A stretch of DNA of 64,000 nucleotides from an uncultured virus (IMG/VR IMGVR_UViG_3300013121_000043) (taxonomy: Duplodnaviria; Heunggongvirae; Uroviricota; Caudoviricetes): IMG/VR virus record IMGVR_UViG_3300013121_000043; one strand, 5' to 3'. The position numbers and the translations under genes are program-made. The notes under the pieces were generated by a model that was not told the origin of the DNA, did not search any database, and saw only the letters and a list, made by a program, of their open reading frames with translations. Within the stretch, counting starts at the first letter, position 1. Each line of letters begins with the position of its first letter. This document shows, one piece after another, positions 5,357-38,939 of the stretch.

Positions 5357-5611
5357 ATGGGTAAATCACTACTGCTGTATTTTTTAGGACAATTTCAGCC
5401 AGGACAACCCATGACCCTGGACAGGGCTGTGGATCAGTGTTTCTTTTTTTCGCCGGAGGAGGCGGCGAGTTACCGGGAACGCCGGGCTATCGACGCCCAG
5501 ATCTTTGCAGCGGCGGTCACGACAGAAGTAGCGACGCGTATCATCGAGCCCGTGGTGATCACAGCTGGGCCCAAGCTCCCGGAGCTGGCCGGGGTGGATG
5601 AGTGCGAATGA
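5357..5611 (+). CDS. hypothetical protein
   Basis: GGAGG RBS; coupled ORF. Confidence 0.6.
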   Translation: MGKSLLLYFLGQFQPGQPMTLDRAVDQCFFFSPEEAASYRERRAIDAQIFAAAVTTEVATRIIEPVVITAGPKLPELAGVDECE

Positions 5612-7187
5612 GAACACCCCAGGATAGCTGTCAGTGCTTCGCGTCCATGCGTGGACGTCTGCGCCGTGTGACCAGCTACACGGTGATTTTTAAGGTGCAA
5701 GAATCAGACGGTCTTCGCTGGGGATTTCGTCTGGAGCGCCCGCTGTGCCACGTACTTAACCGGACCAGGTTTTTCCGGGGCGAGTATCCCCCGTTCCAGT
5801 TGTGTCAACGTGACCTCTTGATTCCCAAATGAATTACGGAAGTCACTCCCTCGGACGGGACGGAGTTTCACTGGTGATCTCGCCCCACCGAACCAGTTAC
5901 CCCTGCGGCTGGCTGTGGCGCACCTACACCCACATCCAGCTGCGGGCCTATCCAGACTACCAGCTGTATTTTGGTTACCTGGATCTGGGAACCCACGTCT
6001 ACGACACGAAGGCGTGGCGGAGGACCACCTGGATCCATGCCACATGATCGTGGGGTGCAGGCTGGCGACCTGGTCCGGGTGGAGCCGTCCTTCGGGAGGG
6101 TATACCGGAAAGCGGTTCGATTCCGCCGCCCGACCTGTGCTGGGAGGTTTGCCGTGATTTTCTACATCATTCAACGCGAGCTGCTGGGGTTTGGCTGGCC
6201 GCAGCCCTCCCACCATACAGGACAGTTTCCGTTTGTGGCGACACTAAGCACCTACTTCTACCGCCAGAAACTTCCCTTCTGGCACCGGCTCCGGCCAATG
6301 TCCCGACCTGTGTGCCACACCACAACCCGCTACCGCGGTCCTGTGGGCTATCTGGTCGGGGGCAGCCTGCTGACAAAGAGGAGTTGATTCGCTTGATTAC
6401 CGTGAACCAGCGGCAGCTGTTTTTGCTGACATCACAGTTTTGTGAGGTGTGGCGGAAGCTGCCTTACCCACGACACCACAGCACCCAGTTTCGCTCTAAT
6501 TACTGGCCGTATTGCTGGTATTATCGCCTTGCTATTGGCTATACCTGGGTGCGCTACGTCACGAGTCAAAACGTCGCGGTTGCCGCGACCCTGCTCACCC
6601 GGTGTCAGGAACATTACAGTGGGAGGTAACCATGCTGGGTGCGGATGCGATTGCTCGCCACAAGGTGGGGTTTCTTGTTCCCTACCGCTATCCCAGGATA
6701 AAACGGGACTGGCGGTACTACTGGTGTTTCAACAAGACCAGTGGGTACCGGATTGGGCTCTATCGCGATAACCTTCTGTCTGTCTTTACCTGGAACCCAC
6801 CGGACCAGGACACACTCCACGATCTGCGGCTGGGGGTGTAAATGATCATCCCGGCCTGGAAGCCACTGCCGCATTACGTACGTAGACGCCACTACGTACA
6901 GATATCTTCTCCAGGTGTACCATGTCACTACATCTGTGCCAGTGTAACTATCCTGTACACAGGCGATTGCTGCTTTTCACCCGAAGTATTTATTGCGGGG
7001 GAGCCCCATGCTTAGTGCGTGGATTCTACCGAACTACCTGGGCCAGTCAGACCTGTTACCCGGATGGAAGCTTCCGGGTTGGACGTACTGGCTCTGCTGC
7101 GCCGACCGTACGCTGATCACTGTCAGCGGGAGACGCCACTATCTGGGCGTGATACATATTCAGCTATCTATTACTACGGAGTAAGTT

Positions 7188-7526
7188 ATGGCACCTCCTT
7201 ACGTGAAACGCTCTAGTAAACAGCTGGACGATGGCTGGGAGATCCAGGATGGTGAGGGAGCCACGATCGCCATCGTGGCCACGGAAACCATGGCCAACGC
7301 CCTGTTGGCCACGCTCCTGGGCCTGCTGGAGCGCGTTCCTGACTACCCCAGTAACACCCCCATTGCCGCGGCCGAGGAGTGCGAGCTGTGGCTTTATCGC
7401 TGCCAGAAGTGCCAGCACGAGGCGGCCCAGCGCGAGTTCTGGCCCATGGATGGCAGTCCGGCCCGGTACATCTGCCCGGCGTGCGGTAGTACCAAGGCCG
7501 TGCTGGCAGGAGAGACCGATGCGTGA
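7188..7526 (+). CDS. zinc-ribbon protein
   Basis: YRCQKC...ICPACGS. Confidence 0.7.
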   Translation: MAPPYVKRSSKQLDDGWEIQDGEGATIAIVATETMANALLATLLGLLERVPDYPSNTPIAAAEECELWLYRCQKCQHEAAQREFWPMDGSPARYICPACGSTKAVLAGETDA

Positions 7527-7962
7527 CTTTGAACGGAAAGACAGGGCGGTGATTCAGCACGCCTGGGCCAACCCCAGCGATTGCATCCTGGGTCCCTGCC
7601 TGGCCGACATCGCCAGGGCCTTTACCACGGCGGGGCTACGCTGGCCTGTACTCAACCCGGAGTATGGCAAGCCGGATGCCTATGCCGATCTGGTGGACAG
7701 GGCCATCTGCGAGGTCATGGAACAGACACGCTGGCGCGTTACCCTGGAGGGAGTACCCACGGGGACCGAGGGATCCTGGAACGACTGCTGGCTGACTCTT
7801 AGCTGGGTCAGTGGCTGCACCTCGGCGGACTGGCAGTTACGACACGGGAAGTACGCCATTGAAGCCATCGTGGACGAGGCCACCAACCATGATTCGACGG
7901 CTGCATATACGCTGTCCGGCGTACTACACGGCGATCGTGCGTCCTGTGCTCGGGCGCTATAG
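7519..7962 (+). CDS. hypothetical protein
   Basis: AGGAG RBS; overlaps the previous stop. Confidence 0.6.
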   Translation: MRDFERKDRAVIQHAWANPSDCILGPCLADIARAFTTAGLRWPVLNPEYGKPDAYADLVDRAICEVMEQTRWRVTLEGVPTGTEGSWNDCWLTLSWVSGCTSADWQLRHGKYAIEAIVDEATNHDSTAAYTLSGVLHGDRASCARAL

Positions 7963-8702
7963 CAACCAGGGGACTTACACCATTACCTGGATAGCCCGGT
8001 TGCAGCCCTTTTTCCTGAATATCGGCCTACGGTGCTACAGTCACCGTAACTACCGGACGCTGCTCACCGCCGTTGTCGACGAGGAGGGTTAGATGCTTAC
8101 GACCAATCGTAAGTTTTCCGACCGGATCCACTACCACTGCATTTACCGGTTTTCTCAGTCTTTGCATCCAGCTGGGGCGTTTACGGCCATCCGTGACCTG
8201 GGGCCTGGACGCACGTATTACGTGGATCTTGGGGTACTGCACTACCTGCGGATACTCCAAAACTACAGCTGGAGTCCATGGCTCACCGTCGTGTCTGGCG
8301 CTCCCCAGGCGGCATCATGTTGACGGTTAACTCTCCTGCTCGCTACGAAACCGCCCGGTCGGCCCGGATGGGCTATTACAAACATGCCAGCTGGATGGTT
8401 TACTACTGGCAAAGTTTACCCCGCGTGGGCGGGCCGGCCCGGTGGGTGTTTACAGTCGGCGTACGGGACGAGTACTGGACACATAAGTTGTTGCTGGTGA
8501 GGGTGTTGTGATGATGCGCCGCAAACGTTATTACCTGCAGCAGGTGCGTCATTTTTATCAGATTTCTTCCTTTCCAGCGCCCTGGCACAACGTGACCCGG
8601 TTCAGTCGTCTAGGAGTCCTGGGGTACTGTCTGGATACCGGCACGATCCCCTTTCGCTGTAGCCGGGCCATGTTTCTGGTCCGTACGTATTCCTGAGGAA
8701 CC

Positions 8703-8826
8703 AAGGCAGAGAAGCAGTGGGGATGTTTTCGTGGCTTTCCTGTCCTAACCGGGTCGCCTCGAGTCCCTGGACACGTCAGAAGCCACCGTCGAGTCCAGGA
8801 GAGGTCCCGGGCTGCTTCTTTGCCTT
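8703..8826 (+). ncRNA. structured intergenic RNA element with a possible pseudoknot
   Basis: 15-bp closing stem 8703-8717/8812-8826; inner stems; loop GAAGCCAC (8779-8786) complementary to GTGGCTTT (8731-8738). Confidence 0.5.
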
Positions 8827-11533: not shown

Positions 11534-11535
11534 CT

Positions 11536-12759: not shown

Positions 12760-12799
12760 ACCTGAGGACTGCCCGGGAATTCCCGGGCAGTCCTCAGGT
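12760..12799. repeat. perfect 40-bp palindrome centred on GGAATTCC
   Basis: ACCTGAGGACTGCCCGGGAA|TTCCCGGGCAGTCCTCAGGT. Confidence 0.9.
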
Positions 12800-12819
12800 T
12801 TATCTTGCCAGGGGTGAGT

Positions 12820-15800
12820 ATGTTCTCTGTTGTTTTCCTGCCACGCTACCGTGGCTTGGATCCTGTGCGCGTAAGCATGCGTGTATGGGGTCGTACCTGG
12901 ACTTATGGTGTCTGGGTAGACGCCTGCTTGTACCGTGCCAGGCCAAGTTACGCGCGCTACTCTGGGACCTACTTTGGATCCGTCCGTCAGGTGTGAGCAT
13001 GATTCATGTTGCGTTTACTAGACCGGTTACGGCTCCTGGAATGCATCCACGGATGCGCGCCTGTCTGCGTATAAACACCCGTATCTGGTTGTTCGGTGTT
13101 TGGACGGAGCATGCCCTGTATCGTGCCAGGCCGGCCTATCTGCGCTACAAGCGCTACACTTACCAGCAGAGGTAAACATGCTACAACACTCCCGCCGCTA
13201 CTACCATGTGTTCTGGTGGGCGGCATTCCAGGGACCTGCGTGTAATACGCATCTATACATCCATGTAGACCTTAGCCGTCGACCACCACCCTGGCCGATC
13301 AGCTGGCACTGTGGTACCGTGACCGTGTCACGCCGGTCGCAGTCTTTTCGCTTCGTGGGCTATAGCTGTGTGCTGTCCCGAACTGAGCCACTCATTGGGT
13401 GGAGTAATGTTACACAACAGTAAGCGGTACTACTCGGACTATCTGTGGAACTGCGTGAACTTCACGCGTATATCCGGGTCCCCGCTGCCACACTATCACT
13501 GGCATCTGCCACACTATCACTGGCATCGTGGTACAGCCTACTTCGTTGAGAATGGCCGCTACACGACCTTTCAACTTCGCGTCCACTGGTTTTACAGGAC
13601 GCGACGTTACGACACCTCTACGGTCCCGGAGTTACCATGATCATTCCTGTATTTCTGCTTTACCATCCCAGGGTGCATACCTTTTCTACCAGGATGCAGC
13701 TTGGCGACTACGTCTGGACTTATGGTGTCTGGACGGACCTGGGGCGCTACCGTCTCTGGCCTGTCTACGCATGGAAGGTCAGTCACAATCCTCCGGGACC
13801 AGGACGATGATCCACCATGCATCGCGCCATCGTATCCTGGCCGGGACGGCGGTACCAGGGCCTGCCGCACGTAGTTCCTTTCTCTTTCTGATACCTTTAC
13901 GCTGGCCCGTACGCTGGCAGTTTGGTACCTGGAGCCCAGCATCTCACCCAAGGTTTTCCCGGTGCCCTGGGTACAGCTGCTTCCTGCGTCGCATTCTCAC
14001 GTCCTGATAGACACATCTGGAGTCGTCATGATTTGTCCCTTCCTGCCGATCTATTATCGCAAGCTCAAGATGGTGAGCTGTCGCTTGCGTATCAACACTT
14101 ACACCTGGGCGTACGGTGTCTGGACGGACATGGGACGCTATCGTCTCTGGCCTGTCTATTTACGACACGTCAATCCTTCTTTTGTTGGGATGCCATGATT
14201 CATCACCCCCATCGCTACCTGATACACCCACTACCCGCATGCCATGGACCCGGGACTCACGCCGGCCTGCAGTTCTACGTGACCGGCTGCTGGCAACTAC
14301 GCTGGCAGATCGGGACCGAGGTACCGGCCAACCATCCGGTGTTTTATCGATGTCCGGCCTACTGCTGCTTAACCTGGTCTGGTTGGGGAGAACGGCAATG
14401 ATTCACAATAGCAAGCGCTACGCCTGGGAAAGATTATGCAGGTGTCGTGTTTGCGACCGGGTCGGGCTACCCCCCACCACCACGGGCACCTTGTTTTTAC
14501 GAGCCGATGGTTGTTCCACGCCGCGGTTGACCTATCAGTGGTGGTACAGGACCAGGGTCTGCCTGCTTTATTTCTGACTCAAGGGAACCTTCCGGAGGAG
14601 ATCCATGCTATCGCGGCTTAATAGGTACGCCTGGGAGAAGCCCTGGGTGCGTATCACAGACTGGCCCAGAATCTGTCGTTACGGGTTATTTGGCGCCTGG
14701 CCTCACTCGGCGGCGGTCCTGCGCGCATGCAGGTATAATCGCTACCTAACTCTTTGGTATTAGTACGGGAACATACCATGGTACATGTCTGCAAGCGTGT
14801 CACAGGCCCGCGGCTAGTTGGGACGCTGACGACAACGAGATTACGTACATCCCTGTGGTATCGCGGTGTGCGCTATTATTGCGACGCCTGCGAAACAGGT
14901 CACGTCTACCCGGCTCTATTTTTCTATGTCGCCTACGGATGATGGAAGTCTACCATGATCTACCACGGCTTTACCACGAAGTGTTACCCACGTGTCTGTC
15001 CCCTGGATACGGCAGGTTATGTCCGTACGCTACGGTTCTGGCAGTACCTGCACCGGGACAGTTTGCACTACTACCGGGTGTTTCCACGTCAGTAGGACTA
15101 CCAGGAGGCAGCATGACACGTAAGCAAAGTCAGGTTCCCAAACCGTAAAGACCCACTCCCTGTACAGGATGAGTTTATGTTCTTCTACAGACTACGCTGG
15201 AGCTTCTATCGATTGCCCTGTCGTAGCACCAGAATACTGTTTCGGCACGAGGCAGGACCGCTGTATCTGCGTTACTGGGACTCAGGTGTTTGCTGTAATA
15301 TGTACGAGCTGGCTGCTCAAAGAAGGAGATGCGCAGTCGGGAGCTAGCCGTGTCTGTTGACCTTCCTCGGAATTCCGAGGAAGGTCTAATCGGTCTCTGT
15401 GGTCACCAGCATAGGCGAACAGCATGATTCACCCAGCAGCACATTACAGTCTCTACGTATGCCCAGTTGTGGTGGTACAGGCAGATACGCGTATACATGA
15501 ACAGGTAACGTATATCCTGTCCAGCGGCGTCTGGGTGGCGGAATGCCTATACAACCTTGCCCCCTATTACGGTAACCACACACCCGACGTCTTTCGTGAT
15601 CCTCGTACCTTTATTTTGAGATGACTGTGACCCCAGGCTTCTTGTTGGAGTAATACATGTGGGTTTCGATTTTCACATTGAGAGTTTCCTGGCCGGGGCT
15701 GCGTGGCCCCTGGTATTACTGTTACTTCAGCTACACTGTGGCTGGGTGCCAGTACCCCTGGGCGCTTGGCGCCTGGGTAGCTCCACACTTTAGGACCCTT

Positions 15801-15830
15801 GCCCCCTACTACCCTACGATGAAGCGATGA
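12820..15830 (+). other. micro-ORF array B (~14 ORFs)
   Basis: Starts at 12820, 12999, 13178, 13407, 13637, 13807, 14028, 14195, 14398, 14605, 14778, 14956, 15424, 15657 (MIHV, MLQHS, MLHNSK, MIHHAS, MIHNSK, MIYHG, MIHPAAHY...). Confidence 0.75.
15359..15386. repeat. perfect 28-bp palindrome centred on GGAATTCC
   Basis: GACCTTCCTCGGAA|TTCCGAGGAAGGTC. Confidence 0.9.
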
Positions 15831-17157: not shown

Positions 17158-17201
17158 AGGCCCAAAAACCCCTGAAAAATAGGGGTTTTTGGGCCTTTTT
17201 T
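17158..17201 (+). terminator. intrinsic terminator
   Basis: AGGCCCAAAAACCCCT/AGGGGTTTTTGGGCCT plus T-tract. Confidence 0.8.
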
Positions 17202-25728: not shown

Positions 25729-25766
25729 TAGCTTGCTACCTCGCTACTACCTTTCAGGAGAAAATC

Positions 25767-26411
25767 ATGTTGTCATTAAAAGCAAGGCCTGAGGTGGTTC
25801 TTACCTCCAGGTTGCGGCGGCTGATACTCTGTGCGACAGTTCGCTACTGCCGACGGTTTCCAGACTTTCAGAAGGAGGTGAACGCCATCCTGGACGTGGC
25901 CGAGTGTATCGCGGACAGGCGTTTTTATACGCTGTCTATGTGGAAGAAGGCCCGATTTTTTCTGGATAAGATTCATGACAACCGGAGAGCTACTATCGAT
26001 GTTTTTGGGTCGAATCGGCAGAACCTGTTAAACGGAGAAGCCTATCTGTGCCTGGGCACCGCCCTGGGACAGGACACGATACACGGTTACATGCTAAATA
26101 GAGCGATCTGGCTCTTGATCAACCAGGGGGATGTAGTGGCGACCATGGAGCACTACGAGCGTACCTTCTTGCCCTGCTATTACCGGCTGGGACATCACCA
26201 GCAGACCATTCCTGGTCACCTGCGCGAGCTAGCGGAGGCCTGTTACAGCGAGCGCAACGAGGATGGTAGCATGAAGCACGAGCTCGTATCTCTACTGGCC
26301 GACGGCTACGCGGACGAGGGTGTGGAGCTACCCCAGCAACAGCTGCAGCAGGGACTGTTTCTCTATCGTGGGCTGTGGTTCGTGGACTTATTACGACCCA
26401 TCCCGCGCTAA
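25767..26411 (+). CDS. helical protein of the same family as 20223
   Basis: RLILCATVR...HLRELAEACYSER..LLADGYADEG..LYRGLWFVDLL. Confidence 0.75.
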   Translation: MLSLKARPEVVLTSRLRRLILCATVRYCRRFPDFQKEVNAILDVAECIADRRFYTLSMWKKARFFLDKIHDNRRATIDVFGSNRQNLLNGEAYLCLGTALGQDTIHGYMLNRAIWLLINQGDVVATMEHYERTFLPCYYRLGHHQQTIPGHLRELAEACYSERNEDGSMKHELVSLLADGYADEGVELPQQQLQQGLFLYRGLWFVDLLRPIPR

Positions 26412-26423
26412 AAAAGAGACACC

Positions 26424-27003
26424 ATGCTACACGACCGCACCCTGGCCGTGCTGAATCACCTGTACGGCTATGAGCGCTTCGGCTATCGGCAGACCGTTAT
26501 CAGAAGCGCATACCTGGAGATAACGAATATGCCTTACCGGTTACCCTGGCGCATCGGTTGTTACGCGGCAGGTACACGTTACTTTGCCACGAAGATACGT
26601 GTTGTTCGGGACAAGAGGCGTCGAATCTAGATCGAGGGTAGAGGGTTGGTATGATCTGCTACAAGCAATGGGATACCCGTTATAAGTACCCGCACGTGGG
26701 GACGTACTACCAGCGTGCCTCGGGAATGTTACGTCTGTGGTGGCACGGGGTGGGACTGTACAGTTACAGCCTGGGAACCTGGTGGCATCCGGACTACGCC
26801 TGTGGCTTTCCCACCTATGTTGTCCTGGAGCGCGACTGATGCTGTTACCATCCCCTGGCTTTTTCGTGGCCTGCCAGCAACGGCCGCAGACAACCACCCG
26901 ACTGCGGGCACACGGTCAAACGTATTACTTTTCCACCCTGGCACTCTGGCGCAGTCGCTGCTTCACGATCGCGTACTGTGCCTGGTATGCCCATAATGAG
27001 TAG
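26424..27003 (+). other. three micro-ORFs (26424, 26651, 26839)
   Basis: MLHDR, MICYK, MLLPS; Y/R/W-rich. Confidence 0.6.
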
Positions 27004-28961: not shown

Positions 28962-29552
28962 ATGTACTGGATCAGTCAAGACGATAACGGTATGTATCAC
29001 TGCGCCTGCAGGATTCAGGACGGTACGGAGTACTGGCATCACCCCACACTTCAGGAAGCCATCGAGTCGATGATTTCCGGGGCGTACATCCTCAACCACA
29101 ATACCATCACGCAGCAGGATATCACGTTCTGTCTGCGCTGCCGTCGCGAGCTGGGCGAGGCTGTACCCCAGGAGCGGCGAGTGGAGCCTGCCGGGGATGG
29201 TCTGGACTATCTGCAGGAGCTGGAAGAGGCCTACGCCAGACTACCCGAGAATTTTCGCGGCGGGCAGATTCTCTATCCCAACATGGATCCCATCGCCACG
29301 TTCCATGCCCTGGCGCGCTCCTACCTGCCCGGGATGATCCGAGACCTTCGCGAGCAGACCATGCTTCTGCATGACCTCCAGGAGGAGTCCCTGGCAGTAC
29401 GAGAGGCCATCTACTACCGGGAGGCGTTGCAAAACATCCTGGATAGCCTGCCGGCTATATCTCCTCACGCCATGTCGCTACCGCCGACCCTGGGACTGAT
29501 CGTGAATAATGTTCGGGAGCTGGCCCAGAAGGCTCTGGAGAAGACGGTATGA
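28962..29552 (+). CDS. hypothetical protein
   Basis: GAGGAG RBS; REQTMLLHDLQEES shared with 27535. Confidence 0.75.
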   Translation: MYWISQDDNGMYHCACRIQDGTEYWHHPTLQEAIESMISGAYILNHNTITQQDITFCLRCRRELGEAVPQERRVEPAGDGLDYLQELEEAYARLPENFRGGQILYPNMDPIATFHALARSYLPGMIRDLREQTMLLHDLQEESLAVREAIYYREALQNILDSLPAISPHAMSLPPTLGLIVNNVRELAQKALEKTV

Positions 29553-32500
29553 TAGCAACCAATCATCGCTACTGGATGGATCAATCACTTCCACACCCAC
29601 GGGTGACCACCCTCTTCGCGGGTTTGCGCAATCTTCTGTGTGGTATGGTTTCGCAGTCCTACTGGAAGAGTCTCTACCGACACGACGCCCTGTTCCCGGG
29701 CTACTACACCCAGATCTATTCAGCCGGAGAGCGTGATGATCTATCACAGTAAAAACTACATGCCCGATATGGCGGTGGAGTGTAGCACGGTGCTGCGCTG
29801 TTCGTCGGGCCGCCTTGCCCTTTCGACAGGCTGCTACGCGGATCATCACGTCTGGTATCAAATGGGTTACGATCGTATCGAACTCATTCTGGAACGGCAG
29901 AACCCCTATTCCACGGAGGATTGAGGTGATCAAGCCTCACAAGTGCCTGTGTATCTACAAGCCGTTCTATCCGGGTGACTATCTCTGGTATTCCTGCTGG
30001 AATAGTAGCGCAGCGTTTTCCATGACCCTGCGCAACTACCACTATAGCATGCGCTTTCGCTATCTGTCTCCCGTCCCTCTTCTGGGCAACATGACCTGGT
30101 TGTCCCAGCTTCCTCACCGGATCAAGTCCCATGATTAGTCCCTACAAGTTTCGCTGTGGCTATGCACGCCTGTCTCCAGGTGCCTATCTGTGGTATCACA
30201 CCTCCGATTCTGATGCCAATTTTCACTACGTCAGTTTTGTCGTGGAGAGCTTCTGTCGTGGCACACGCTTCAGGTGTAGCTGGGGCACAGGTGGTAACTG
30301 GAGCACACTCATGTCAGGATTACCTGTTCACGTCTAGGAGCAATACGTGGTCTTTTCTCACGGTAACTGCCGATTTTTCCGCTATCGATTTCCCAGAATC
30401 ACACTCTACTGGCGGCTGGTAATGACCCGACCGATCCAGTCGCTGGTGCTCTTTCGTAGCACCGTGTTCTGGTACAGGTCCAGGACCGCGGTAAGAAGGA
30501 GCGGTTACGCCATTTTGCTCATCCGGGGAGTGCGACATGCTCTCGCGGGCTAGCTACAGGTGGCGCTACTACGCCAGTCCCTGCTGTTGTGTTGTCGCCC
30601 TGTCTCCAGCTTCCGACACCGTACACCTGTACCATCACCTGCTACACAGCCACGGTACGGCGCTTTCTTACTGCAGTTTGGTATATGACTGTTTTTTCAC
30701 ACGACGCGTTACACGTCTTCTCTGGCTTACCAGTATCTCGGATAGGGGCCGGTACCGACAGGAGATTTCATGATAGTAGCTGTGGAATGTCATAAGTACC
30801 AGTATCCCAGTAGCTACTTTTCCATCCGGGCTGGTCGATCCGGGCTGGTCGATCCGGACACAGCTGGCGTCATTTTCGTATGGCGTAGGTGCATAATCAT
30901 CATGCCATGGAGGTTACCTATACGGCCGTTGGTACGGCCAGCCGGCACCGCCAGTATGCGTTACTACCCTGGCTGGTAAACCGAATATGAGAAAAGCTAT
31001 GTTGATTCGTTACTGTCAGCGGCACTACTGGTATATACCCAGGCTGCGCCAGCCCTGGCGTCACCAGATGCAGGTGGTTTTTCCAGGCTGGCTGTACCCG
31101 AGGGAGTGGTGCTATGGTGTTTTTTACACCGACGCAGGACATATGCACATACCCAGCCTCAAACCTATTCCTCGCCCCTGTTACGTTTGTTAATAAGGAA
31201 GGGTCTGTATGTTACACGGACGGAGGCTATGCCCAACAACCGCTGGATGCTACCGGCGACCCGGTCGCTGGCTTCAGGAAGTCTTTAGCCTGTGGGCGGG
31301 ACCTGTTTTTAAGGCCTGGTGGTACGGTACCACGGTTATGGATAGACCGAGGGACATCCCAGGCACGGTGCCCGTGAGGATAAGTTACCAGTGATCTACC
31401 GTAGTAAAGGCCTGGTGGAGAATACCCCGAGATACCGCCATCCTGGGCGGTTGTACCGGGAATTACTGATCCTGCAGCTAGGTGCACCACACTACTATGG
31501 ACGCGGCTATCGCCACGGTACCATGTTTGTGGAGAATCCCGGGAACCCGATAACCCGGTGTTCTGTCCGAGGGTTCCCCTGGCGCTACTGCACAACCTAC
31601 TGAGGTGGAGTCATGTGTTATGTTGCCAAGCGCGCGATGTATCGCGGCACGTTTTATCACTACTATGGTCGCGGCTGGCCCGTATCGACCTGCCTGGGTA
31701 ACTATGCGTTAAGAGGCGGAGTCGCCTTGCCGTTGATCGGCATAACCCGTTGGCGTAACGGTACTTATGTCTTCCCACCAGAAGGGTATTCCTTTGATTT
31801 TTCACAGCCGTAATACGCGACCATGCTGGTATGTCACAAGTTATCTGCGTTACAGGAGTTATCCCTACTGGCACTATCGGCACTGGGGTTGTCTGGTTTT
31901 TGGTGTGCTGTACTCCGGGTTCTACTACTACCCCCGTGTCAACATGGTTGCCTGGAGTGGTAGAGAAGAATAGCACGCCCCTGTGGAGTAATCCATGATT
32001 CGACCACTGATTCTGCGCCCTCTGTTGTGCTATGGGTGCCGTGGCACGCTCTACCGTCGTGGCTCTTGCCGGTACTTCCAGCCTTACGGCTGTGCCATGA
32101 TGGAGCGGTGGGTGGGGCGTCGTGGCTGTTTTTGGAGTGTCAGATGATCTACCACTGTAAAAACCTCCGTCCCGGTAACGTCGTGCTCTGTGTCACGGAC
32201 GTGGCCCTGGAAACAGACTGTGGTTTTGGCTTCGGGGTCTGGAACCACATTCCCAGCTGGTTTGATGGTTACGATCGTGTGGATATGGTTTTGGCGAGAT
32301 ACTGGTCATGATTTACCGACCTGGTGTTCGTTCCTACCGCTATCATCTCTTCTGCTACACCCTGTACCGTACACACCGGGGCGGTTACAGGTATTTTGGT
32401 ACGGTACATACCACCCCGTCTGGGTTGTGGTTTGGCAGCTCACTACAGCGACACGTCTGGCTTTTTTACCCACGACTGAGTGCGCGGCCTTGTTGCGAGG

Positions 32501-35500
32501 TGAACTATCAGGAGATCCCGGCATGATCTACCGACCAGGAACACACCCCTGGGGCTATCACGTATTCAGCTCGACGTACTGGACGCGCAGAGGCGCGGGC
32601 ACTCTGGCGAAGAGCTGGCTATCTCGCCAGAGTGTTGGCAATGTGAGCAGGACGCTCAGCTACCGGGCCAGGTACTATCTTCCCTGTCTTCATGAGGCAA
32701 CCTATGCTGTTCTGTCCAGGTAGGCGATCCAAACACTACCACACGTACGTGGCCACGCGCATCCTTTTTAACACGGCGTTTCACTACCCCATCTGTGCTT
32801 TGACTCTCCTGCCCATTTTCACGTATTACAGCCTTCCTCGGCGTGTCGCCTGGACGCGGCAGGTACTCCAGGTCTTGTCAGGAGAGCGTCGTGATCTACA
32901 CAGGTAAGAAGGTAAGCGCAACGTACCATACTTGCGTAACGACTAGCTTTATAACAACCTACGTTCTCTACAGCCTGTGCGTGTCCGTGGCCCGTCGGTG
33001 CCCGTTCTGGTCGAGTAGCCCAGCGTACAGGATGTGTTTCAGGTGCCCTGTTACAAAGAGGGTACAGTGTGATCTACGCAGGTAAGAAATATAAATCTGG
33101 ATACCACATACTTAGCTTCACTTACATGATCCTTCGGCCTGGCGTTCGATACAATATGACCACACCCGCGGCTAGGCGGTATCCGTTCTACCGGGATAAC
33201 CTGTCGTACAGAATGTGTTTCTTTTGCCCTGTTACAAGGAAGATCATGTAATGCTCTATCACAGCAAGCACTGCCAGCCCTGGATGACCGTACGTAATTA
33301 CACGACCTTTTTCCTGTACCATCAGGAAGACGCCACCAGTCCGTTTCTCTATCTCTGGTGGGGTACAGATCTGCCAGATCGCGGCGGCATCAGCTACCGC
33401 GATAACTATCCCATCCTGGCGAAAGATCCGGTGACATCTTGATTCACCACAGCAAGTTGTTCCTGTTTGGCCGCGGCCATCACGTCTGTCGGCGCGTGTC
33501 GTGTATTCGGCTGGGCCGGTTCGTCCACTATCTGGGAGATGGAACCTACCTCGATCTTTGCTGGCGCTCGTGTTACTACCCCAGGGCAGGCAAGGAGCGG
33601 ATCTATTTTCTGGGAAGGAGGATGCATCCGTGATCTACCATAGACGTTACTGGAACACGGTTACACTACACTCCACCTGGCATGATGGCCGTATGTCCTA
33701 TCTCTGCCTGGGCACGGGCTTTTGGGATCGCTCTTATGGGTCACTCCGGTGGAGCGTTTTGCGCTATGCGAGAGTCTACCTCAGTCTGTGGTAATCCTCA
33801 TGATCTACTGTGCACATCGCTATATTCATGACTATGTGGTCTGCTGCACCACGAGCCTGCCCAGCGGGCCGCTGTGGCTGGGTACCGAGGTTCTGACGTC
33901 TTACGAGTATATGTTACCCCTTCTGGAACGCCCGGAGCGTCTTTCCTGGTACTACGAAGAGATGACACTATGATTCACCACAGCAAGAACCACCTGCGAC
34001 CGGGCATGAAGCCCACGCTCTGGTTTTTTGGTCCGAGGAGTATCCCCTGGTTCACAGGTACCTGGCTGCGCTGCGATGGGGCCTGCTTTGCCTACTACCG
34101 GGTCCCGTACCTGCGGCACCCGGGCTGGACCCTGACCTGACACGAGGAGTCGCGAAGTGATCTACCATACCTATGGCGACGTGCCCGAAAGATGTGTCCT
34201 GGTCAGTACCCTGGTGGGTAGCTACCACTGGTTTGTCTGTCTCTGCGCGGGCACTCGCATCGATCCCAGGCGCTACGCTTCCTGTGGTCGTGTTACTGTC
34301 TGCTACACCTCCTTTGCGGAGACATACTCTTGATGGTCAATCACAAGCATCACGACGTACACTATCCGCGACTGTATACGTACGGCCTGCTACTGCGCAA
34401 GAACATCTGGCCTGTCTTCTGGAGCGTGGGGGTGAACATGACCACCGGGGTAGACTGGGCCGTGTTTCCTTTTGTGACCTACAGGCGGTTGCTTGTTATT
34501 ACCGAGTCGCAGCTTACATGGAACTAGCGAATGCTGTACCATCCCTGGTCGCAAATAACACCCATAGTGATCACGATCGTGTCCCGACGGCGGGTGGGCG
34601 GTCACCGAACTTCGTACCGAAGGTTGCGTACACGTGTTCCCGTGCGGCGTAGGGTCGTGATGAACCACACCACCAGGATCTTGACAAACGATGCTCACGA
34701 AACCATTACCACTCTACCACAGGGCTAGCTGTAACACCCTCATGGAGATCTTCTTGTTTCAGCCTATTCAGGTCTCTTTCGTGCGACGTTTTGGTGTGGT
34801 CCTGTCTAGCCATGTTTTCCAGGCCCCGCCGGCATTGCGACTTTTCTGGAAGTCCCATAGACTGCTATCGTGAGGGAATCATGATTTCGCAGTTCAATAA
34901 TAGCTACTGGCGCAGGTATTATCACAGCGCCAGCCGGTATCACCGCACAGTGATTCCCTACGCGTCTTATCTGCCCATGTGGTCCTACCTGACCCTGAAA
35001 ACCGTCGTGATCAACCTGGTATCCGTTGTAACCGTCTTGCGGAGGTTAGGATGATACCCTGGCGTCCTTGCCGTATGCTACCTTCGTACCACTGTCGTTA
35101 CTGTCGCTGTGTTTTGCTTTTGTGGATCCTGTGCGACGTCAAGAATAGTCGCTACTACGGCTATCCCCTGGGTCTGCCTCTACCTAGCTGCTACGCCCGA
35201 ACAGACTGCCGATGATTCATCACAGCAAGAAGACCTGGTGGTACTCGTACATGGTGCGCGCGATACCGATCTGCCCGGCACGCTGCTATATGCGACTGTA
35301 TGCACAGACGATGATGGGAGGCACGCTGTTTTTTTACCGCTACAACGCCTCGCGGAGACTACCCTATCATCTTCGCTACGACTGCGTCCTCGTGGAGGAG
35401 AGGCAACCATAATCTATCACTGCAAGAATATGCCTGGCTGTTTTGCCGTACCCTGTCCCTTGCAACTCGACAGCGGCCGGCCGTATTTCTGGTGGGAGGG

Positions 35501-37179
35501 TATCATCATTTTCAGCAAGGATGGTCCGAGCCTCTGGTACGAAGGTGTCTACCCGCGGATGACTTGTTACACCTACCTTTACACGTGGGGTAGTTCATCA
35601 TGATCTATCACTGCAAGAATAGACCGGCAGCGTTTGCCGTGTATCTTTCCCTGGGCTTTCTGGCTGGGCGCGGTAATGTGTCCCACACCTGGTGGGAGGG
35701 TACTCTCATGGACAGGAATGGGTACAGTCGTTGGCTCGTAGAGACCTATCGGCGGGTCGTCTGCGACACTTTCTTTTTACCCCCGGTAATTCGATCATGA
35801 TCTACCACTGTAAGCGACCGCCTGGCAGGGAAAGCTATCGGCCGAGAGATGCTGTTCTGCTACCGCGTGTCGCGTTTTACTATTTCCATGATGTCTTTTT
35901 CTCCCATGTCGTGTGGTGTTACGGTCCGAAGTTTCTTTTCGACCGGCACTGGATTGATAACGTACAGCATCGTTTCACTCGCGTACAGGGGCTGTAGCAT
36001 GCTCAAGGGTGTCTTTCCCAGCCGTGTTGTTTTCGGACCTGCCCGGTGTGGGGGCGGGTTACGCTTCAACCTCTATCTGCTACCCCGTCGCGCCAACACC
36101 TACCACATGCTAGGTGTCTGGTATTTCTGTGGTTGCAAGATACGCGGAGCCTATCCGTACACCACGCACTGGGCTTGAGGAACACCATGATCTACCACTG
36201 CAAGAACCACGTCATGGCCGGGACCGTCTACAGCTACACGGTCTTCCATGCCAACGCGGAGGGCTACTGGTGGTACGGTGTCTGGATCATACCTTCAGAT
36301 GAGGCTGTGACGCGCCGGATCGGTCTGGTATTACGACGCTATCCTGTGTTCTACGAGGTTTAAGTGATGGTACACCACCGCTGGCGTGTGCGCTGGAACG
36401 TCTATTACCCAATGCGCCGCTTTCCCGACACAACCACCCAGCTGATTGGTGGCTGTCCGGAACCCAGTCTGTTTTCCTGGCGCTACGGGACGCGGCCATT
36501 CCCGCGCTCGATCCGGATTACCTTTACTCCTTATGGAGGTCGCTGTGTCCCTGTTCTTCCGGTCTAACTTGTCCTGGACTTGTTACTATAACCATCCCTG
36601 CCACACGACCTATTATTACCTGTCCTGCCACGGCGGTACGCAGCGGCGCTTCCTCCAGTTTGGCTGTCGCCGCCCTGGATGGGCTTACTACTACAGCGTC
36701 ACCCCCGTGATCGAGGTGCACCGTGATTATTAACCACACAGGCTATCTCCCCACGCTGTTTTATCGTCGGACCGCGCAGCGCTGGTTTTACCTGTATCGC
36801 ACCACCTTCCCGGGTAGGGAGGTGGCGGGACTGTGTCTGGGAGATATTCTTCGCAACCGCTTTGAAGTCCGTTTCCCCTGCGTTGGAGCCTGCCGCAGCG
36901 TGCAGCGCTATCGCAGTGTTTTCTGGTGGCCACGCCAGGTAACCACCTTCATCTATGCTGGAAACTTTGCCGTCATAGAAGCCGGAGATGAGGTATCACA
37001 CGATGATCTATAACTGCAAGAACAAGGTGGGTAGCTACCACGCCCGCCTGTCGACAGACTACGACATTACCTACTGGTGGTTGGGAATTCACATCCGTGG
37101 CGTTAACAGTTCGTTTCTGGGAGTGTACTACGACAGGCCGAGCTGCACCACAGTACTGGCCAGTTCTCTCCACCCCTAA
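29549..37179 (+). other. micro-ORF array D (~40 contiguous ORFs, MIYH[SC]K-rich)
   Basis: Starts at 29549, 29736, 29926, 30131, 30347, 30537, 30770, 30999, 31209, 31391, 31613, 31794, 31995, 32144, 32308, 32523, 32704, 32891, 33069, 33251, 33439, 33630, 33800, 33970, 34157, 34333, 34531, 34691, 34881, 35051, 35212, 35409, 35600, 35797, 35999, 36187, 36367, 36723, 37003. Confidence 0.8.
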
Positions 37180-37203: not shown

Positions 37204-37255
37204 TTTCTTGCCGGTGTAGTGGTTACACCGGTATTTTTGTCGGGAGGGAGTATCC

Positions 37256-37561: not shown

Positions 37562-37563
37562 GT

Positions 37564-38319
37564 ATGAGTCTGGAGATCCAACGCGAGCTGGTCCGGGACA
37601 TTCTCCGTGACCCCCGGGATATGTACCCACGCCACCTGCTCTACGACCACATTCTGGACTCCTCCCGGCTGGGGGAGGAGGATCCACGCCTGCCGTTGTG
37701 GCAGCTGGTGATGGACTGGCACGCACTGGAGACATCACGTACGGTGCCGGACGACCCTGTCTGGCTCAAGGTGGGTTATGATCAGGTCTTTCTGGTAATC
37801 CGGAAGAAGTGGCGTCTGCTCGTGACCGGTATCAAGGATTCAGCGCGCAACCGGGCGCTCAAGCTCCTGCCAGCACTTTTGCTTCACACAGATACCACCG
37901 TGAACGAGCTCAGTACGGATACGCGTCTGTGGTACTCGACCTCCGGGATCCACCAGCGCAGCCAGTGGCTGCGAACCTGGTTGACGTACGTGGAGCTCCA
38001 GGCCTGTCACCTGGTGGGTGGGATCTACTTTCGTCGACACAGGATTGCCGCACCAGCAGACCATCTGTATCCCCACCCAATGCCCTACCTGTCGGGGGTG
38101 TTTCGGGAGTACTTTTGTCGCTTTATTACCAGCCGTGGTTTTGGCCCGACGCGAAACTTTTGTGAGCAGGGGCGTACGGCCAGGCTGATACGAACTGCGT
38201 ACGCCGAGTCGCTGTTGGAGTTCGCCCCGCGGCTGGACAACCCCCTGTTGCATGACCACCGGTTCTTTGTCAAGCGTTATGGGACGCAGGACAACTGGTG
38301 GTCGGTTTTTGTGGAGTGA
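37564..38319 (+). CDS. protein with a TIGR02996-like N-terminal domain
   Basis: RELVRDILRDPRDMYPRHLLYDHIL resembles the AILAxPDDDxPRLVYADWL pattern. Confidence 0.6.
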   Translation: MSLEIQRELVRDILRDPRDMYPRHLLYDHILDSSRLGEEDPRLPLWQLVMDWHALETSRTVPDDPVWLKVGYDQVFLVIRKKWRLLVTGIKDSARNRALKLLPALLLHTDTTVNELSTDTRLWYSTSGIHQRSQWLRTWLTYVELQACHLVGGIYFRRHRIAAPADHLYPHPMPYLSGVFREYFCRFITSRGFGPTRNFCEQGRTARLIRTAYAESLLEFAPRLDNPLLHDHRFFVKRYGTQDNWWSVFVE

Positions 38320-38322
38320 GTG

Positions 38323-38769
38323 ATGAAAAAAGTTCTGATTCTGCGTGGCCTGCCTGGTTCGGGCAAGACAACATTTGCCAGGAACCTAACCGTGGCCAGC
38401 ACCATTGTTAGCGCCGACGACTACTACATGGTCGACGGCGTTTACAAGTTTGACGCCGGTAAGATCCAGCAGGCACACAACCAGTGTCTGCGACGGTACA
38501 CCACGTACCTGTCCTCGCTACTGGCCCAGCCAGGGCCCATGATGCTGGTGGTGGACAACACCAACACCACGGCGGTGGAGATTGCCCCGTATTACCGGCT
38601 GGCCCAGGCGTTTGGCTGGCAGGTGGAGATCCACCTGTTTGATTGCGACGTGGCGACCTCCGTGCGTCGTAACGTCCATGGTGTGCCGGAGTCGGTCATC
38701 TACAAGATGGCGGCCAATCTGCAGGAGAAGTTGCCCTGGCCGCAGACCGTGCATGGGATGGCGGCATGA
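38323..38769 (+). CDS. P-loop kinase (AAA_33 / N4BP2-like polynucleotide kinase)
   Basis: ILRGLPGSGKTT, SADDY, AHNQC, VVDNTN, RNVHGVP. Confidence 0.9.
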   Translation: MKKVLILRGLPGSGKTTFARNLTVASTIVSADDYYMVDGVYKFDAGKIQQAHNQCLRRYTTYLSSLLAQPGPMMLVVDNTNTTAVEIAPYYRLAQAFGWQVEIHLFDCDVATSVRRNVHGVPESVIYKMAANLQEKLPWPQTVHGMAA

Positions 38770-38939
38770 TCTACCATGCCCTGGGTCGTGTGCCGGATAG
38801 CCAGGTTAGCTGCTTCACGCGAATCGACTGCCGGCGTCATCGGGGTTGGCGGCAGTGGCATCCACTGTGGTGCAGTCCCCTGGTGTATTATGTGTCTCGC
38901 CCCTATTTGCGCGTACGTGTCTGCACGCGGCGGGACTAA
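38766..38939 (+). CDS. micro-ORF (MIYH family)
   Basis: ATGA overlap; MIYHALGR... Confidence 0.6.
   Translation: MIYHALGRVPDSQVSCFTRIDCRRHRGWRQWHPLWCSPLVYYVSRPYLRVRVCTRRD

What the first reader, a model, noticed from the sequence alone, without database searches (positions are those of the whole stretch)
5608..38939. Library of ~100 hypervariable microproteins with a conserved N-terminal tag (MI[YH]H[SC]K)
Seen: about 20 kb is tiled by 45-95-aa plus-strand ORFs at ~190-bp spacing in four arrays (5.6-8.7, 12.8-15.8, 17.3-24.6, 29.5-37.2 kb). They are joined by ATGA/GTGA overlaps or short gaps, often with GGAG RBSs inside the previous gene. All are rich in Y/R/W/C/H and poor in D/E. About 25 start M[IL][YH][HN][SC]K or a close variant (e.g. 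14398, 19882, 20938, 22136, 22318, 29736, 32144, 33251, 33439, 33970, 35212, 35600, 35797, 36187, 37003), while their bodies are largely unalignable. The motif varies at synonymous positions (ATT/ATC, CAC/CAT, AGC/AGT, TGC/TGT, AAG/AAA), which indicates selection on the peptide. Inference: a constant leader (targeting, packaging or processing signal) carries variable cargo, e.g. an anti-defence or decoy repertoire. The closest analogy is T-even internal proteins with a shared capsid-targeting N-terminus, but this set is much larger. I know of no described family matching it.
Basis: partly seen in the sequence, partly recalled or inferred. Interest (0 to 1): 0.93.

Follow-up and report, generated by a model that had tools for sequence, protein, structure and literature searches.

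The report
Arrays of ~100 orphan aromatic-rich microgenes
About a hundred tiny, back-to-back genes for tyrosine- and tryptophan-rich basic proteins with no relatives in the databases searched fill nearly a third of this stretch of an uncharacterised mobile element; they look truly protein-coding, but what they do is unknown.

Summary
I count 102 small plus-strand genes (median 64 aa). They lie in four arrays plus five isolated copies and cover 18.5 kb.

**They are coding.**
- Pooled synonymous codon usage matches the element's long genes only in the proposed frame (r 0.95; other frames 0.34-0.70).
- 66 of 102 have a GGAG-type ribosome-binding site, against a 10% background.
- 24 junctions are ATGA overlaps.
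- The closest paralog pair gives dN/dS of about 0.15.
- RNA folding and Rfam give nothing.

**The N-terminal motif is real.** There are 19 strict copies, and 44 genes start M[IL][YH]. Its codons 2-6 show pN 0.125 against pS about 1.0.

**The bodies are not wholly unalignable.**
- One subfamily has 18-19 members.
- A W-x-x-G-V-W-type core occurs in 30 of 102 proteins.

**The "address tag" reading has a rival.** The first codons are G-poor even at four-fold synonymous sites. Selection for translation re-initiation therefore competes with that reading.

**No identification was possible.** I found no homologue outside this contig, no Pfam hit and no confident fold. Function is unknown; the anti-defence or packaging idea is neither supported nor excluded.

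The parts
5608..8696 (+). Array 1: 11 small genes, interrupted by two ordinary genes (7188-7526, 7519-7962). Weakest array, with few tag-like starts.
   Evidence: Tiling. RSCU r is 0.82 in frame against <=0.65 in other frames. Tiling cover is 0.817 against a shuffle maximum of 0.804.
12805..15830 (+). Array 2: 15 small genes. It includes a repeated multi-gene unit: a WxYGVW-type gene, then an MIHH(A/P)-type gene, then an M[IL]HNSK-type gene.
   Evidence: cluster membership by coordinate. D9 copies are 391 nt apart, D15 copies 188 nt apart. RSCU r 0.75.
17344..24213 (+). Array 3: 31 small genes. 17344-19555 is a run of the 'MIxPAxHY...WxxGVW...APYY' subfamily (alignment A1). Two more candidate microgenes follow at 24210-24392 and 24474-24635.
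   Evidence: RSCU r 0.91.
29549..37179 (+). Array 4: 40 small genes covering 98.6% of the span, with median spacing 190 nt. Most strict MI[YH]H[SC]K starts lie here.
   Evidence: RSCU r 0.91.
25077..27003 (+). Isolated members: 25077-25274, 26424-26630, 26651-26839 and 26839-27003, lying between ordinary genes.
38766..38939 (+). Last isolated member (starts MIYHALG...). Its start overlaps the stop of the AAA_33 P-loop gene 38323-38769.
   Evidence: it clusters with the tagged group.
35600..35617 (+). Example of the 18-nt N-terminal motif (M-I-Y-H-C-K). There are 19 such sites: 13407, 14398, 19882, 20072, 20938, 22136, 22318, 22942, 29736, 32144, 33251, 33439, 33970, 35212, 35409, 35600, 35797, 36187, 37003.
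   Evidence: 19 matches against 0.02 expected. (pN 0.125, pS 0.996 over codons 2-6).
12760..12799 (+). Strong hairpin (18 pairs) immediately upstream of array 2. Terminator-like, but its T tail is poor.
17158..17196 (+). Intrinsic-terminator-like hairpin (17 pairs followed by T5) upstream of array 3. Array 3 therefore probably starts its own transcript.
37209..37233 (+). Terminator-like hairpin 30 nt after the last gene of array 4.
39039..39071 (+). Terminator-like hairpin (14 pairs followed by T7) after the last isolated microgene.
20223..20969 (+). Ordinary repeat-protein gene inserted into a microgene. The 5' part of the split microgene is 20072-20230. Its 3' part is now the in-frame C-terminus of this ORF (about 20856-20937).
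   Evidence: D6 links 19990-20089 and 20856-20955 at 77% identity; the C-terminus reads ...[24 protein letters not shown]...
4109..5354 (+). Context: two ECF-type sigma factor genes (4109-4729, 4734-5354) directly upstream of array 1. A third lies at 15872-16513, between arrays 2 and 3.

Best explanation
The region holds a lineage-specific superfamily of about 100 small proteins that are very probably translated. They have a median length of 64 aa and a median net charge of +6, and Tyr, Trp, His and Phe together make up about 22% of residues. No homologue was found outside this contig.

**How it is built (shown by the sequence).** The family grew by tandem duplication, partly of units of two or three genes, followed by deep divergence. 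Ordinary genes have been inserted into it at least once.

**How it is expressed (inferred from the anatomy).** The genes sit in a few long polycistronic units bounded by terminator-like hairpins. Translation probably passes from cistron to cistron by termination and re-initiation. This would use GGAG sites inside the upstream gene and overlapping stop and start codons (ATGA, or a TAA inside the next gene's motif). Each array would then be made together as a set.

**The shared N-terminus.** M-[IL]-[YH]-[HP]-[SA]-K is an inherited feature kept by purifying selection. Part of that selection acts on the RNA, as a G-poor initiation region. Part probably acts on the peptide.

**Function (inferred, about 0.3 on its own).** The proteins act as a co-expressed repertoire of small, sticky binding modules. 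They would bind host proteins or nucleic acids when the mobile element is active. This rests on the specific excess of Tyr and Trp and on the basic charge.
For: **Coding.**
- Pooled RSCU of 102 small genes (6437 codons) against the long genes is r 0.954 in frame and 0.34-0.70 in the five other frames. The result holds for the A1 subfamily (0.84), the tagged genes (0.90), the 65 remaining genes (0.95) and each array (0.75-0.91).
- 66 of 102 have an RBS motif against a 9.9% background. 83 of 102 start with ATG. 24 junctions are ATGA overlaps.
- The closest paralog pair, 19882/20072, gives dN 0.126 and dS 0.85, with differences by codon position 5/6/14. All 14 pairs with a finite dS give dN below dS.
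- G is depleted at four-fold sites of codons 2-7 (0.216 against 0.312, p 0.002), as expected for genes selected for initiation.

**Not RNA.** Rfam gives 0 hits. Folding z-scores for 10 units range from -1.49 to +0.51, similar to 5 control stretches from long genes.

**Orphan status.**
- The A1 profile found only the contig's own proteins in the 5.8-billion-protein index.
- Against 1.84 billion representatives it found only those plus 5 long repeat proteins. The four that were fetched and read are summed weak repeat matches.
- The A3 profile found only the contig's own proteins, even at E<=1.
- 0 of 102 proteins have a Pfam hit.
- The paired-motif DNA pattern occurs 3 times in the window and 0 times in each of three public collections.

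**Family structure.**

**Duplication units and the insertion.**

**Operon bounds.**

**Aromatic excess is frame-specific.** Tyr is 9.0% in frame, 1.9-3.1% in the other five frames, and 2.7% expected from base composition.
Against: - There is no expression evidence of any kind. No RNA run holds the sequence.
- There is one contig and no relatives, so no between-genome conservation test is possible.
- Per-gene codon scoring picks the annotated frame for only 63 of 102 genes (chance would give 17), because the genes are short.
- Most paralog pairs are saturated at synonymous sites. The dN/dS alignments were protein-guided, which lowers dN.
- AlphaFold2 gives no confident fold: A1 pLDDT 50.8 and pTM 0.15; A3 pLDDT 59.8 and pTM 0.25. 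The ESM Atlas's own models score pLDDT 0.28 and 0.47. Nothing structural therefore supports a binding module.
- The superfamily link between A1 and the tagged group is weak (hhalign probability 5.5%).
- 68 of 114 small proteins are sequence singletons.
- The functional part of the statement rests on composition alone.
Confidence: 0.55

Rival explanations
1. The N-terminal 'tag' is not a peptide signal. It is the footprint of common descent plus RNA-level selection on each cistron's re-initiation region. That region would be G-poor and unstructured, and it also supplies stop codons for the upstream gene. Any function of the proteins would lie in their bodies.
For: - G content at +4..+18 is 0.12 (tagged genes), 0.18 (A1) and 0.18 (the other 65), against 0.28-0.31 further downstream. 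The long genes show a weaker dip, 0.25 against 0.31.
- G at four-fold synonymous sites is 50 of 231 in codons 2-7 against 871 of 2793 later (p 0.002).
- All tag residues use codons without G at positions 1-2, or AGY/TGY. Ser is always AGY (13 of 13).
- ATGA gives TGA in frame +1. AGT-AAR or TGT-AAR gives TAA in frame +2. This accounts for the 24 junctions with -4 overlap and the 6 with -17 overlap.
- Two different N-terminal types (MIxHSK and MIxPAxHY) share only the G-poor character.
Against: - The order I-[YH]-H-[SC]-K is fixed in 19 genes whose synonymous sites are randomised (pN 0.125). Pure composition selection should allow many other G-free codons.
- G depletion at synonymous sites is modest (0.22 against 0.31). 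GNN codons are almost absent at codons 2-3 (6 of 102 each).
- AGY-only serine is equally explained by descent.
Confidence: 0.35
2. A constant N-terminal address tag loads variable cargo proteins into a particle, a secretion route or a processing enzyme. The set would serve as an anti-defence or host-takeover repertoire, like the T-even internal proteins but far larger.
For: - Purifying selection on the N-terminal peptide, with free synonymous sites and unalignable sequence after codon 8.
- The proteins are small and basic (median net charge +6).
- They are encoded on a mobile element: an integrase and TnpB and a PcfJ-like gene whose relatives lie on long, phage-like or mobile-element-like metagenome contigs.
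- T-even internal proteins are described as a highly diverse set of defence-countering proteins that share only a capsid targeting sequence (PMC3012670, passages read).
Against: - No capsid, portal, terminase, prohead protease, secretion or injection component was recognised among 57 non-array proteins.
- tblastn of two large proteins against 50,697 phage records found nothing.
- The conserved part is 6 residues, and only 19 of 102 genes carry it strictly.
- A translation-level explanation exists.
- No member matches any known anti-defence family in Pfam.
Confidence: 0.2
3. The microproteins are nucleic-acid-binding or condensing proteins. Their basic, aromatic-rich character would let them coat or compact the element's DNA or RNA. 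The many copies would then reflect dosage rather than diversity of targets.
For: - Median net charge is +6 over 64 residues; only 9 of 102 proteins have a charge of 0 or below.
- Tyr, Trp, Phe and His total about 22% of residues.
- Coupled expression would give roughly equal amounts of every member.
Against: - Dosage amplification predicts similar copies. These have diverged to saturation, and 68 of 114 are singletons.
- Arg and Lys are not enriched beyond what base composition predicts.
- No known nucleic-acid-binding fold or family was detected.
Confidence: 0.12
4. The genes encode precursors of ribosomally made, post-translationally modified peptides. A shared recognition sequence would precede variable cores rich in cross-linkable Tyr, Trp, His and Cys residues.
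For: - Many small genes share a constant N-terminus and differ in the remainder.
- The composition is rich in residues used for cross-links. That use is recalled, not tested here.
Against: - The conserved part is 6-8 residues, not a leader of about 20 or more. The variable part is about 55 residues.
- No radical-SAM, P450, YcaO, lanthipeptide synthetase, peptidase or exporter family was found among 57 non-array proteins.
- 0 of 102 match the leader families in Pfam.
Confidence: 0.05
5. The ORFs are not functional genes. They would be chance open frames in A-poor repetitive DNA, a noncoding RNA repeat family, or decaying duplicates.
For: - The A-poor strand lowers stop-codon frequency: 0.019-0.033 per codon in three of the five other frames.
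- Shuffled sequence can already be tiled to 56-59%.
- There is no confident fold and there are no homologues.
Against: - Frame-specific agreement of codon usage (0.95 against <=0.70).
- RBS enrichment of 65% against 10%.
- Ordered stop/start junctions.
- Frame-specific Tyr and Trp excess.
- dN below dS.
- Synonymous G avoidance at starts.
- No Rfam hit and no excess RNA folding.
Confidence: 0.05

Closest known systems
T-even phage internal proteins (IPI, IPII, IPIII, Alt) with the capsid targeting sequence
   Same: Both are small proteins whose sequences are otherwise diverse and which share a short N-terminal sequence. Both are encoded by a mobile genetic entity. In T-even phages they serve as a diverse counter-defence set (PMC3012670, passages read). 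That the T4 internal proteins are basic is recalled, not checked.
   Different: T4 has a handful of such proteins, not about 100. They are not arranged in translationally coupled tandem arrays. Their tag works with a scaffold core and a prohead protease, and neither was found here. Sequence similarity to the T4 tag was not tested.
Libraries of modified-peptide (RiPP) precursors, such as the prochlorosins (recalled, no paper read)
   Same: Dozens of small genes with a constant N-terminal part and a variable remainder, all in one genome.
   Different: Those leaders are long (about 20-80 residues) and belong to known families, and a modifying enzyme is present. Here the constant part is 6-8 residues, no enzyme was found and no leader family matched.
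Anti-defence islands in the leading region of conjugative plasmids (PMC11541004; PMC13478746)
   Same: Runs of co-oriented small genes on a mobile element, with a reported adaptation for translational efficiency. For both papers I saw only the search listing and the start of the abstract.
   Different: No relaxase, oriT-associated gene or type IV secretion gene was recognised in the window. No member matches a known anti-defence family. Such islands hold unrelated genes rather than about 100 paralogs.
Lineage-specific tandem gene amplification and divergence ('genomic accordion' in poxviruses, paralog families of giant viruses; recalled)
   Same: Growth by tandem duplication followed by divergence. 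Higher-order units of two or three genes were re-duplicated.
   Different: The copies here have diverged to synonymous saturation. This is therefore an old, maintained family and not a recent copy-number response. The unit is a microgene of about 195 nt.
Antibody-like binding surfaces and protein-interaction hot spots rich in Tyr, Trp and Arg (recalled)
   Same: Tyr and Trp are specifically over-represented, 3.3-fold and 2.2-fold over the base-composition expectation. The best, non-significant PDB sequence matches of the tagged profile are antibody CDR3 regions (E 0.22 and 0.67).
   Different: There is no immunoglobulin or other scaffold, no significant similarity and no evidence of binding.

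Membership tests
T-even internal proteins / capsid targeting sequence system | A short N-terminal sequence shared by otherwise unrelated small proteins | tested here: met
   19 genes carry the strict tag and 44 start M[IL][YH]. Sequence after codon 8 is unalignable within the tagged set: pN 0.72 and pS 0.70. This is a likeness of architecture only. Similarity to the T4 sequence itself was not tested.
T-even internal proteins / capsid targeting sequence system | A prohead protease and scaffold/capsid genes in the same genome that use the tag | tested here: not met
   No capsid, portal, terminase, scaffold or prohead protease family was found among 57 non-array proteins in Pfam, PHROGs or NCBIfam. 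This covers the 64-kb window only; the other 58 kb of the contig could not be read.
RiPP precursor library | A conserved leader of about 20 or more residues, or a known leader family (Nif11, NHLP and others) | tested here: not met
   Conservation ends after 6-8 residues. 0 of 102 proteins have any Pfam hit at E<=0.01.
RiPP precursor library | A modifying enzyme encoded nearby | tested here: not met
   No radical-SAM, YcaO, LanM/LanB/LanC, P450 or peptidase family was found in 57 non-array proteins. Window only.
Leading-region anti-defence island of a conjugative element | Position next to oriT/relaxase, and the presence of known anti-defence families | tested here: not met
   No relaxase or type IV secretion family was found. 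The only conjugation-associated hit is a PcfJ-like domain. 0 of 102 microproteins match any Pfam family. Co-orientation of the genes is met.
WXG100 / ESAT-6-like secreted small proteins | About 100-aa helical hairpin with a central W-x-G, matching Pfam WXG100 | tested here: not met
   No Pfam hit. The only secondary structure in the models is a short beta-hairpin at the W-x-x-G-V-W motif, and that is low confidence.
Noncoding RNA repeat family | A match to an RNA family, or folding beyond the composition expectation | tested here: not met
   0 Rfam matches at gathering score. z-scores of 10 units range from -1.49 to +0.51. Codon usage is frame-specific.
Diversity-generating retroelement target genes (true hypervariation) | A reverse transcriptase plus a template repeat paired with a variable repeat | tested here: not met
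   No reverse transcriptase family was found among 57 non-array proteins. The direct repeats found are diverged paralog segments of 60-92% identity.

The most novel reading that the evidence does not exclude
A mobile element carries a hard-wired library of about 100 Tyr/Trp-rich mini-binders. They are made together from coupled operons, and many share a short N-terminal handle. The element would use them to neutralise many different host defence or housekeeping proteins at once. This would be a repertoire strategy of counter-defence, in place of one dedicated inhibitor per system, and a natural source of minimal binding scaffolds.
Probability: 0.12. Interest if true: 0.9.

Novelty: categorically new. 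Interest (0 to 1): 0.68.

Why it matters
If the arrays are translated as the sequence indicates, nearly a third of this window is spent on about 100 diverged microproteins. They form a family with no relatives among 1.84 billion representative proteins and no predictable fold.

- **Small-protein biology.** It would be one of the largest tandem microgene families I know of in a prokaryotic mobile element. My four literature searches found no counterpart.
- **Translational coupling.** Each array is a natural test bed for termination and re-initiation across as many as 40 cistrons.
- **Birth and divergence of new proteins.** The family spans stages from an 80%-identical gene pair to unalignable singletons, all side by side.
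- **Counter-defence or host takeover.** If the bold reading holds, this would be a new strategy.

The "new" label is provisional. It applies to the protein family and the architecture, not to a demonstrated mechanism.

Tried and rejected
**Noncoding RNA.** Rfam gave 0 hits. ARAGORN found only tRNA-Ser at 3425-3511. Folding z-scores are near 0. Rejected.

**Relatives elsewhere.**
- The A1 and A3 profiles returned only the contig's own proteins in the 5.8-billion index. That index needs shared 5-residue words and searched only proteins of about 30-130 aa.
- The A1 profile against 1.84 billion representatives returned 17 hits at E<=0.001. Twelve are the contig's own small proteins. Five are long repeat proteins (P0012, P0014-P0017). 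Of those five, the four I read are summed weak repeat matches, and P0014 was not fetched.
- Only A1 and A3 were searched.
- The paired-motif DNA pattern gave 0 hits in genome, viral and metagenome contigs.
- Single-protein scans of viral contigs gave nothing. L012 is an 11-residue chance match with no array.
- A viral-contig scan with alignment A1 was not possible, because no stretch is conserved enough.

**Related elements.** The PcfJ-like protein has 12 metagenome relatives. None of the 11 loci fetched shows MI[YH]-type arrays. The two loci whose ORFs I listed in full, L003 and L004, hold ordinary genes. None was found in genome contigs or viral contigs.

**Element type.** tblastn of the 765-aa and 450-aa proteins against phages found no match. 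The 627-aa protein found no match in plasmids. The PcfJ-like protein matched only the PcfJ domain of 4 plasmids. PADLOC gave only weak P-loop, nuclease and NUDIX hits plus an MzaA-like sigma match.

**Structure.** AlphaFold2 on A1 and A3 gave low confidence, so no fold search was run. The ESM Atlas gave no usable neighbour (best 0.87). PDB sequence searches gave nothing significant.

**Superfamily unification.** Iterating the A1 model inside the window stayed at 18 members. hhalign of A1 against A3 gave 5.5% probability.

**Expression.** No RNA holder is listed. One DNA run, labelled an anaerobic digester metagenome, holds short identical pieces at depth 2-4. It may be the source sample, and it gave no variants to analyse.

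**Not available.**
- The whole genome.
- Earlier findings.
- Cluster look-up.

**Not run.** Complex prediction was not run, because the report claims no specific binding pair.

Full report
**1. The observation**

The 18-nt motif behind M-I-[YH]-H-[SC]-K occurs 19 times with at most one mismatch. All copies are on the + strand, against 0.02 expected from shuffles.

ORFs of 35-110 codons that begin [AGT]TGAT[ACT] number 94 on the + strand and 28 on the minus strand. They are concentrated between 6 and 38 kb.

A dynamic-programming tiling of + strand ORFs, with 17 hand corrections of start or frame, gives 102 small genes. Four arrays hold 11, 15, 31 and 40 genes, and five genes are isolated. Two further candidates at 24210-24392 and 24474-24635 appear in the listings but were not counted.

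Median length is 64 aa. Start spacing is 190-222 nt. 18,524 nt are covered.

**2. Are they genes?**

Several independent lines say yes.

- *Codon usage.* Synonymous codon usage pooled over the 102 genes correlates with that of the element's long genes at r 0.954 in the proposed frame. The five other frames give 0.34-0.70. The result holds separately for the A1 subfamily (0.84), the tagged genes (0.90), the 65 remaining genes (0.95) and each array (0.75-0.91).
- *Ribosome-binding sites.* GGAG, GAGG or AGGA lies 4-16 nt upstream of 66 of 102 starts, against 9.9% of all positions in the arrays. 83 starts are ATG.
- *Junctions.* They are ordered. 24 of 101 are ATGA-type overlaps, 6 are 17-nt overlaps and 86 lie between -20 and +35 nt.
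- *Tiling.* ORFs cover 0.82-0.87 of each array on the + strand, against a mean of 0.56-0.59 in shuffles. Array 1 barely exceeds the best shuffle.
- *Paralog divergence.* The closest pair (19882/20072) gives dN 0.126 and dS 0.85, with differences by codon position 5/6/14. All 14 pairs with a finite dS have dN below dS. Most pairs are saturated, and the alignments were protein-guided.
- *Tyr and Trp excess.* Tyr is 9.0% in frame against 1.9-3.1% in the other frames. Trp is 4.0% against 1.3-2.8%.
- *Synonymous G avoidance.* G is avoided at four-fold sites of codons 2-7: 50 of 231 against 871 of 2793 later (p 0.002). This is the signature of selection for translation initiation.

Two results weigh against a confident call. 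Per-gene codon scoring is noisy, with 63 of 102 genes best in the annotated frame. There are no expression data.

The noncoding-RNA alternative fails. Rfam gives no hit, and folding z-scores of ten units are like those of control coding stretches.

**3. What the proteins look like**

Median net charge is +6; only 9 of 102 proteins are at or below zero.

Against the arrays' own base composition, the specific enrichments are Tyr (3.3-fold), Trp (2.2-fold), His (1.5-fold) and Phe (1.3-fold). Arg, Cys and the scarcity of Asp, Glu and Lys are roughly what the A-poor DNA predicts. Ala, Ser and Pro are depleted.

The bodies are not wholly unalignable.
- phmmer groups 114 small proteins into clusters of 19, 9, 4, 4 and five pairs, with 68 singletons.
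- The largest subfamily (alignment A1, consensus MIxPAxxY...WxxGVW...APYY) has four invariant columns: M1, G35, P47 and Y49. It stays at 18 members, with no decoy hits, on iteration.
- A core [WYF]xxG[VIT][WFYLVC] occurs in 30 of 102 proteins at residues 24-48, against 4.5 in shuffles. It forms the only secondary-structure element, a beta-hairpin, in a low-confidence model.
- Profile-profile comparison of A1 with the tagged group aligns the N-terminus and this core in register, but at only 5.5% probability.

A single superfamily is therefore plausible but not shown.

**4. The N-terminus**

84 of 102 genes start M[IL], 44 start M[IL][YH], 19 carry the strict tag and 14 start MIxP[AS]. Hand-picked starts inflate the first figure.

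In the 19 tagged genes, codons 2-6 give pN 0.125 and pS 0.996. From codon 9 onward both are about 0.7. The caveat is that the set was chosen by the motif.

Three facts temper the "address tag" reading.
- The first five codons are G-poor in all classes: 0.12-0.18 against 0.28-0.31 downstream.
- G is also depleted at synonymous sites there.
- The motif supplies the upstream gene's stop codon. ATGA gives TGA in frame +1, and AGT-AAR or TGT-AAR gives TAA in frame +2. This matches the 24 junctions with -4 overlap and the 6 with -17 overlap.

Part of the conservation therefore serves re-initiation. The fixed residue order, and the near absence of GNN codons at positions 2-3 (6 of 102 each), go beyond what the modest synonymous effect explains. 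A peptide-level role remains likely but undefined.

**5. Evolution and expression**

Subfamily order in array 2 shows re-duplication of multi-gene units. The order runs A1-type, MIHH(A/P)-type, then M[IL]HNSK-type. Order in array 3 shows the same: 21933-type then tagged genes, repeated at 22730. Repeats spaced 391 and 188 nt apart support this.

One microgene was split by the insertion of an ordinary repeat-protein gene. Its C-terminal half is now fused in frame to that gene's end.

Terminator-like hairpins lie at 12760-12799, 17158-17196, 37209-37233 and 39039-39071, at the edges of arrays. Three ECF-type sigma factor genes sit just before arrays 1 and 3.

I infer a few long polycistronic transcripts with translational coupling along each. 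Each array would then be produced as a set. This is inferred from anatomy and has not been observed.

**6. Context**

The window carries:
- a tyrosine recombinase
- a TnpB
- a tRNA-Ser
- a PcfJ-like protein
- an AAA+ ATPase
- a 1032-aa NUDIX-containing protein
- an RpoD-like sigma

Most other proteins match nothing. No phage structural, conjugation or peptide-modifying family was recognised. tblastn against phage and plasmid collections found only the PcfJ domain.

The PcfJ-like protein has 12 metagenome relatives. The loci fetched around them have no such arrays.

The contig is 122,303 bases long. I could read only this window. One DNA run, labelled an anaerobic digester metagenome, holds short identical fragments.

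**7. Comparison with what is known**

*Family searches.*
- Pfam gives 0 hits among the 102 proteins.
- The A1 and A3 profiles find only the contig's own proteins. The five long repeat proteins are summed weak matches; I read four of them.
- The PDB gives nothing significant.
- AlphaFold2 and the ESM Atlas give no confident fold.

*T-even internal proteins.* The nearest analogy in architecture is the T-even internal proteins, which share only a capsid targeting sequence (PMC3012670, passages read). The machinery that defines that system was not found here.

*RiPP precursor libraries.* These differ in leader length and in the presence of enzymes.

*Leading-region anti-defence islands.* They share the co-oriented small genes but not the paralogy (PMC11541004 and PMC13478746; listing and start of abstract only).

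*Literature.* Four full-text searches for tandem small-gene or microprotein arrays with a conserved N-terminus returned nothing comparable. Subscription journals and supplements were not covered.

**8. Verdict**

The feature is real and very probably coding. It is an orphan, tandemly amplified microprotein family with an unusual aromatic-rich composition and a selectively maintained N-terminus.

Function is unknown. My ranking is:
- nucleic-acid binding (0.12)
- modified-peptide precursors (0.05)
- non-functional ORFs (0.05)

Separately, I put 0.35 on the tag being mainly a translation-level feature.

The word "hypervariable" is not supported. These are old, diverged paralogs. No diversity-generating machinery was found, and no positive selection was demonstrated.

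Noticed in passing
window 20356-20650: A 12-nt tandem repeat of at least 16 copies inside gene 20223-20969. It encodes a four-residue Ala/Gln/Asn/Trp/Asp-rich repeat. The protein matches two PHROG families of unknown function.
   Followed up: partly
window 20072-20230 and 20856-20937: A microgene split by insertion of the 20223-20969 gene. Its 5' part survives as a 52-aa ORF. Its 3' part is fused in frame to the end of the inserted gene (77% identical to 19990-20089).
   Followed up: yes
window 4109-5354 and 15872-16513: Three ECF-type sigma factor genes on the element, placed just upstream of arrays 1 and 3. No anti-sigma partner was recognised. Promoters shared by the arrays were not sought.
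   Followed up: partly
window 60703-62157 (-) and 62045-63136 (-): An RpoD-like sigma factor that also matches the MzaA model (sigma of the MZA anti-phage system) lies next to a tyrosine recombinase. Both are on the opposite strand from everything else.
   Followed up: no
window 49084-50283: An IS605-family TnpB (OrfB_IS605, Cas12f-like TNB and HTH domains) lies among the large genes of unknown function. No TnpA was noted, and its guide RNA was not sought.
   Followed up: no
window 9395-9598 and 16574-17104; 27896-27955 and 29347-29406: The ordinary genes of the element are also duplicated. Two acidic proteins share the start M-x-F-x-V-x-L-x-R-D. A 60-nt segment is 92% identical between genes 27535-28149 and 28962-29552.
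   Followed up: no
window 50728-53826: A 1032-aa protein with a central NUDIX domain, a weak acylphosphatase-like match and no other recognisable part. It is followed by four large proteins (627, 317, 432 and 765 aa) that match nothing in Pfam or NCBIfam. Two of them were also tried by tblastn (765 aa against phages, 627 aa against plasmids), without a match.
   Followed up: partly
window 3425-3511: tRNA-Ser (anticodon TGA) lies in a gene-poor stretch near the left end. It may be the element's own tRNA or an attachment-site remnant. UCA is a rare codon here (RSCU 0.39-0.45).
   Followed up: no
window 17197-17343: A T-rich, A+T-rich gap between a strong terminator and the first gene of array 3. 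This is the likely promoter region of that array.
   Followed up: no
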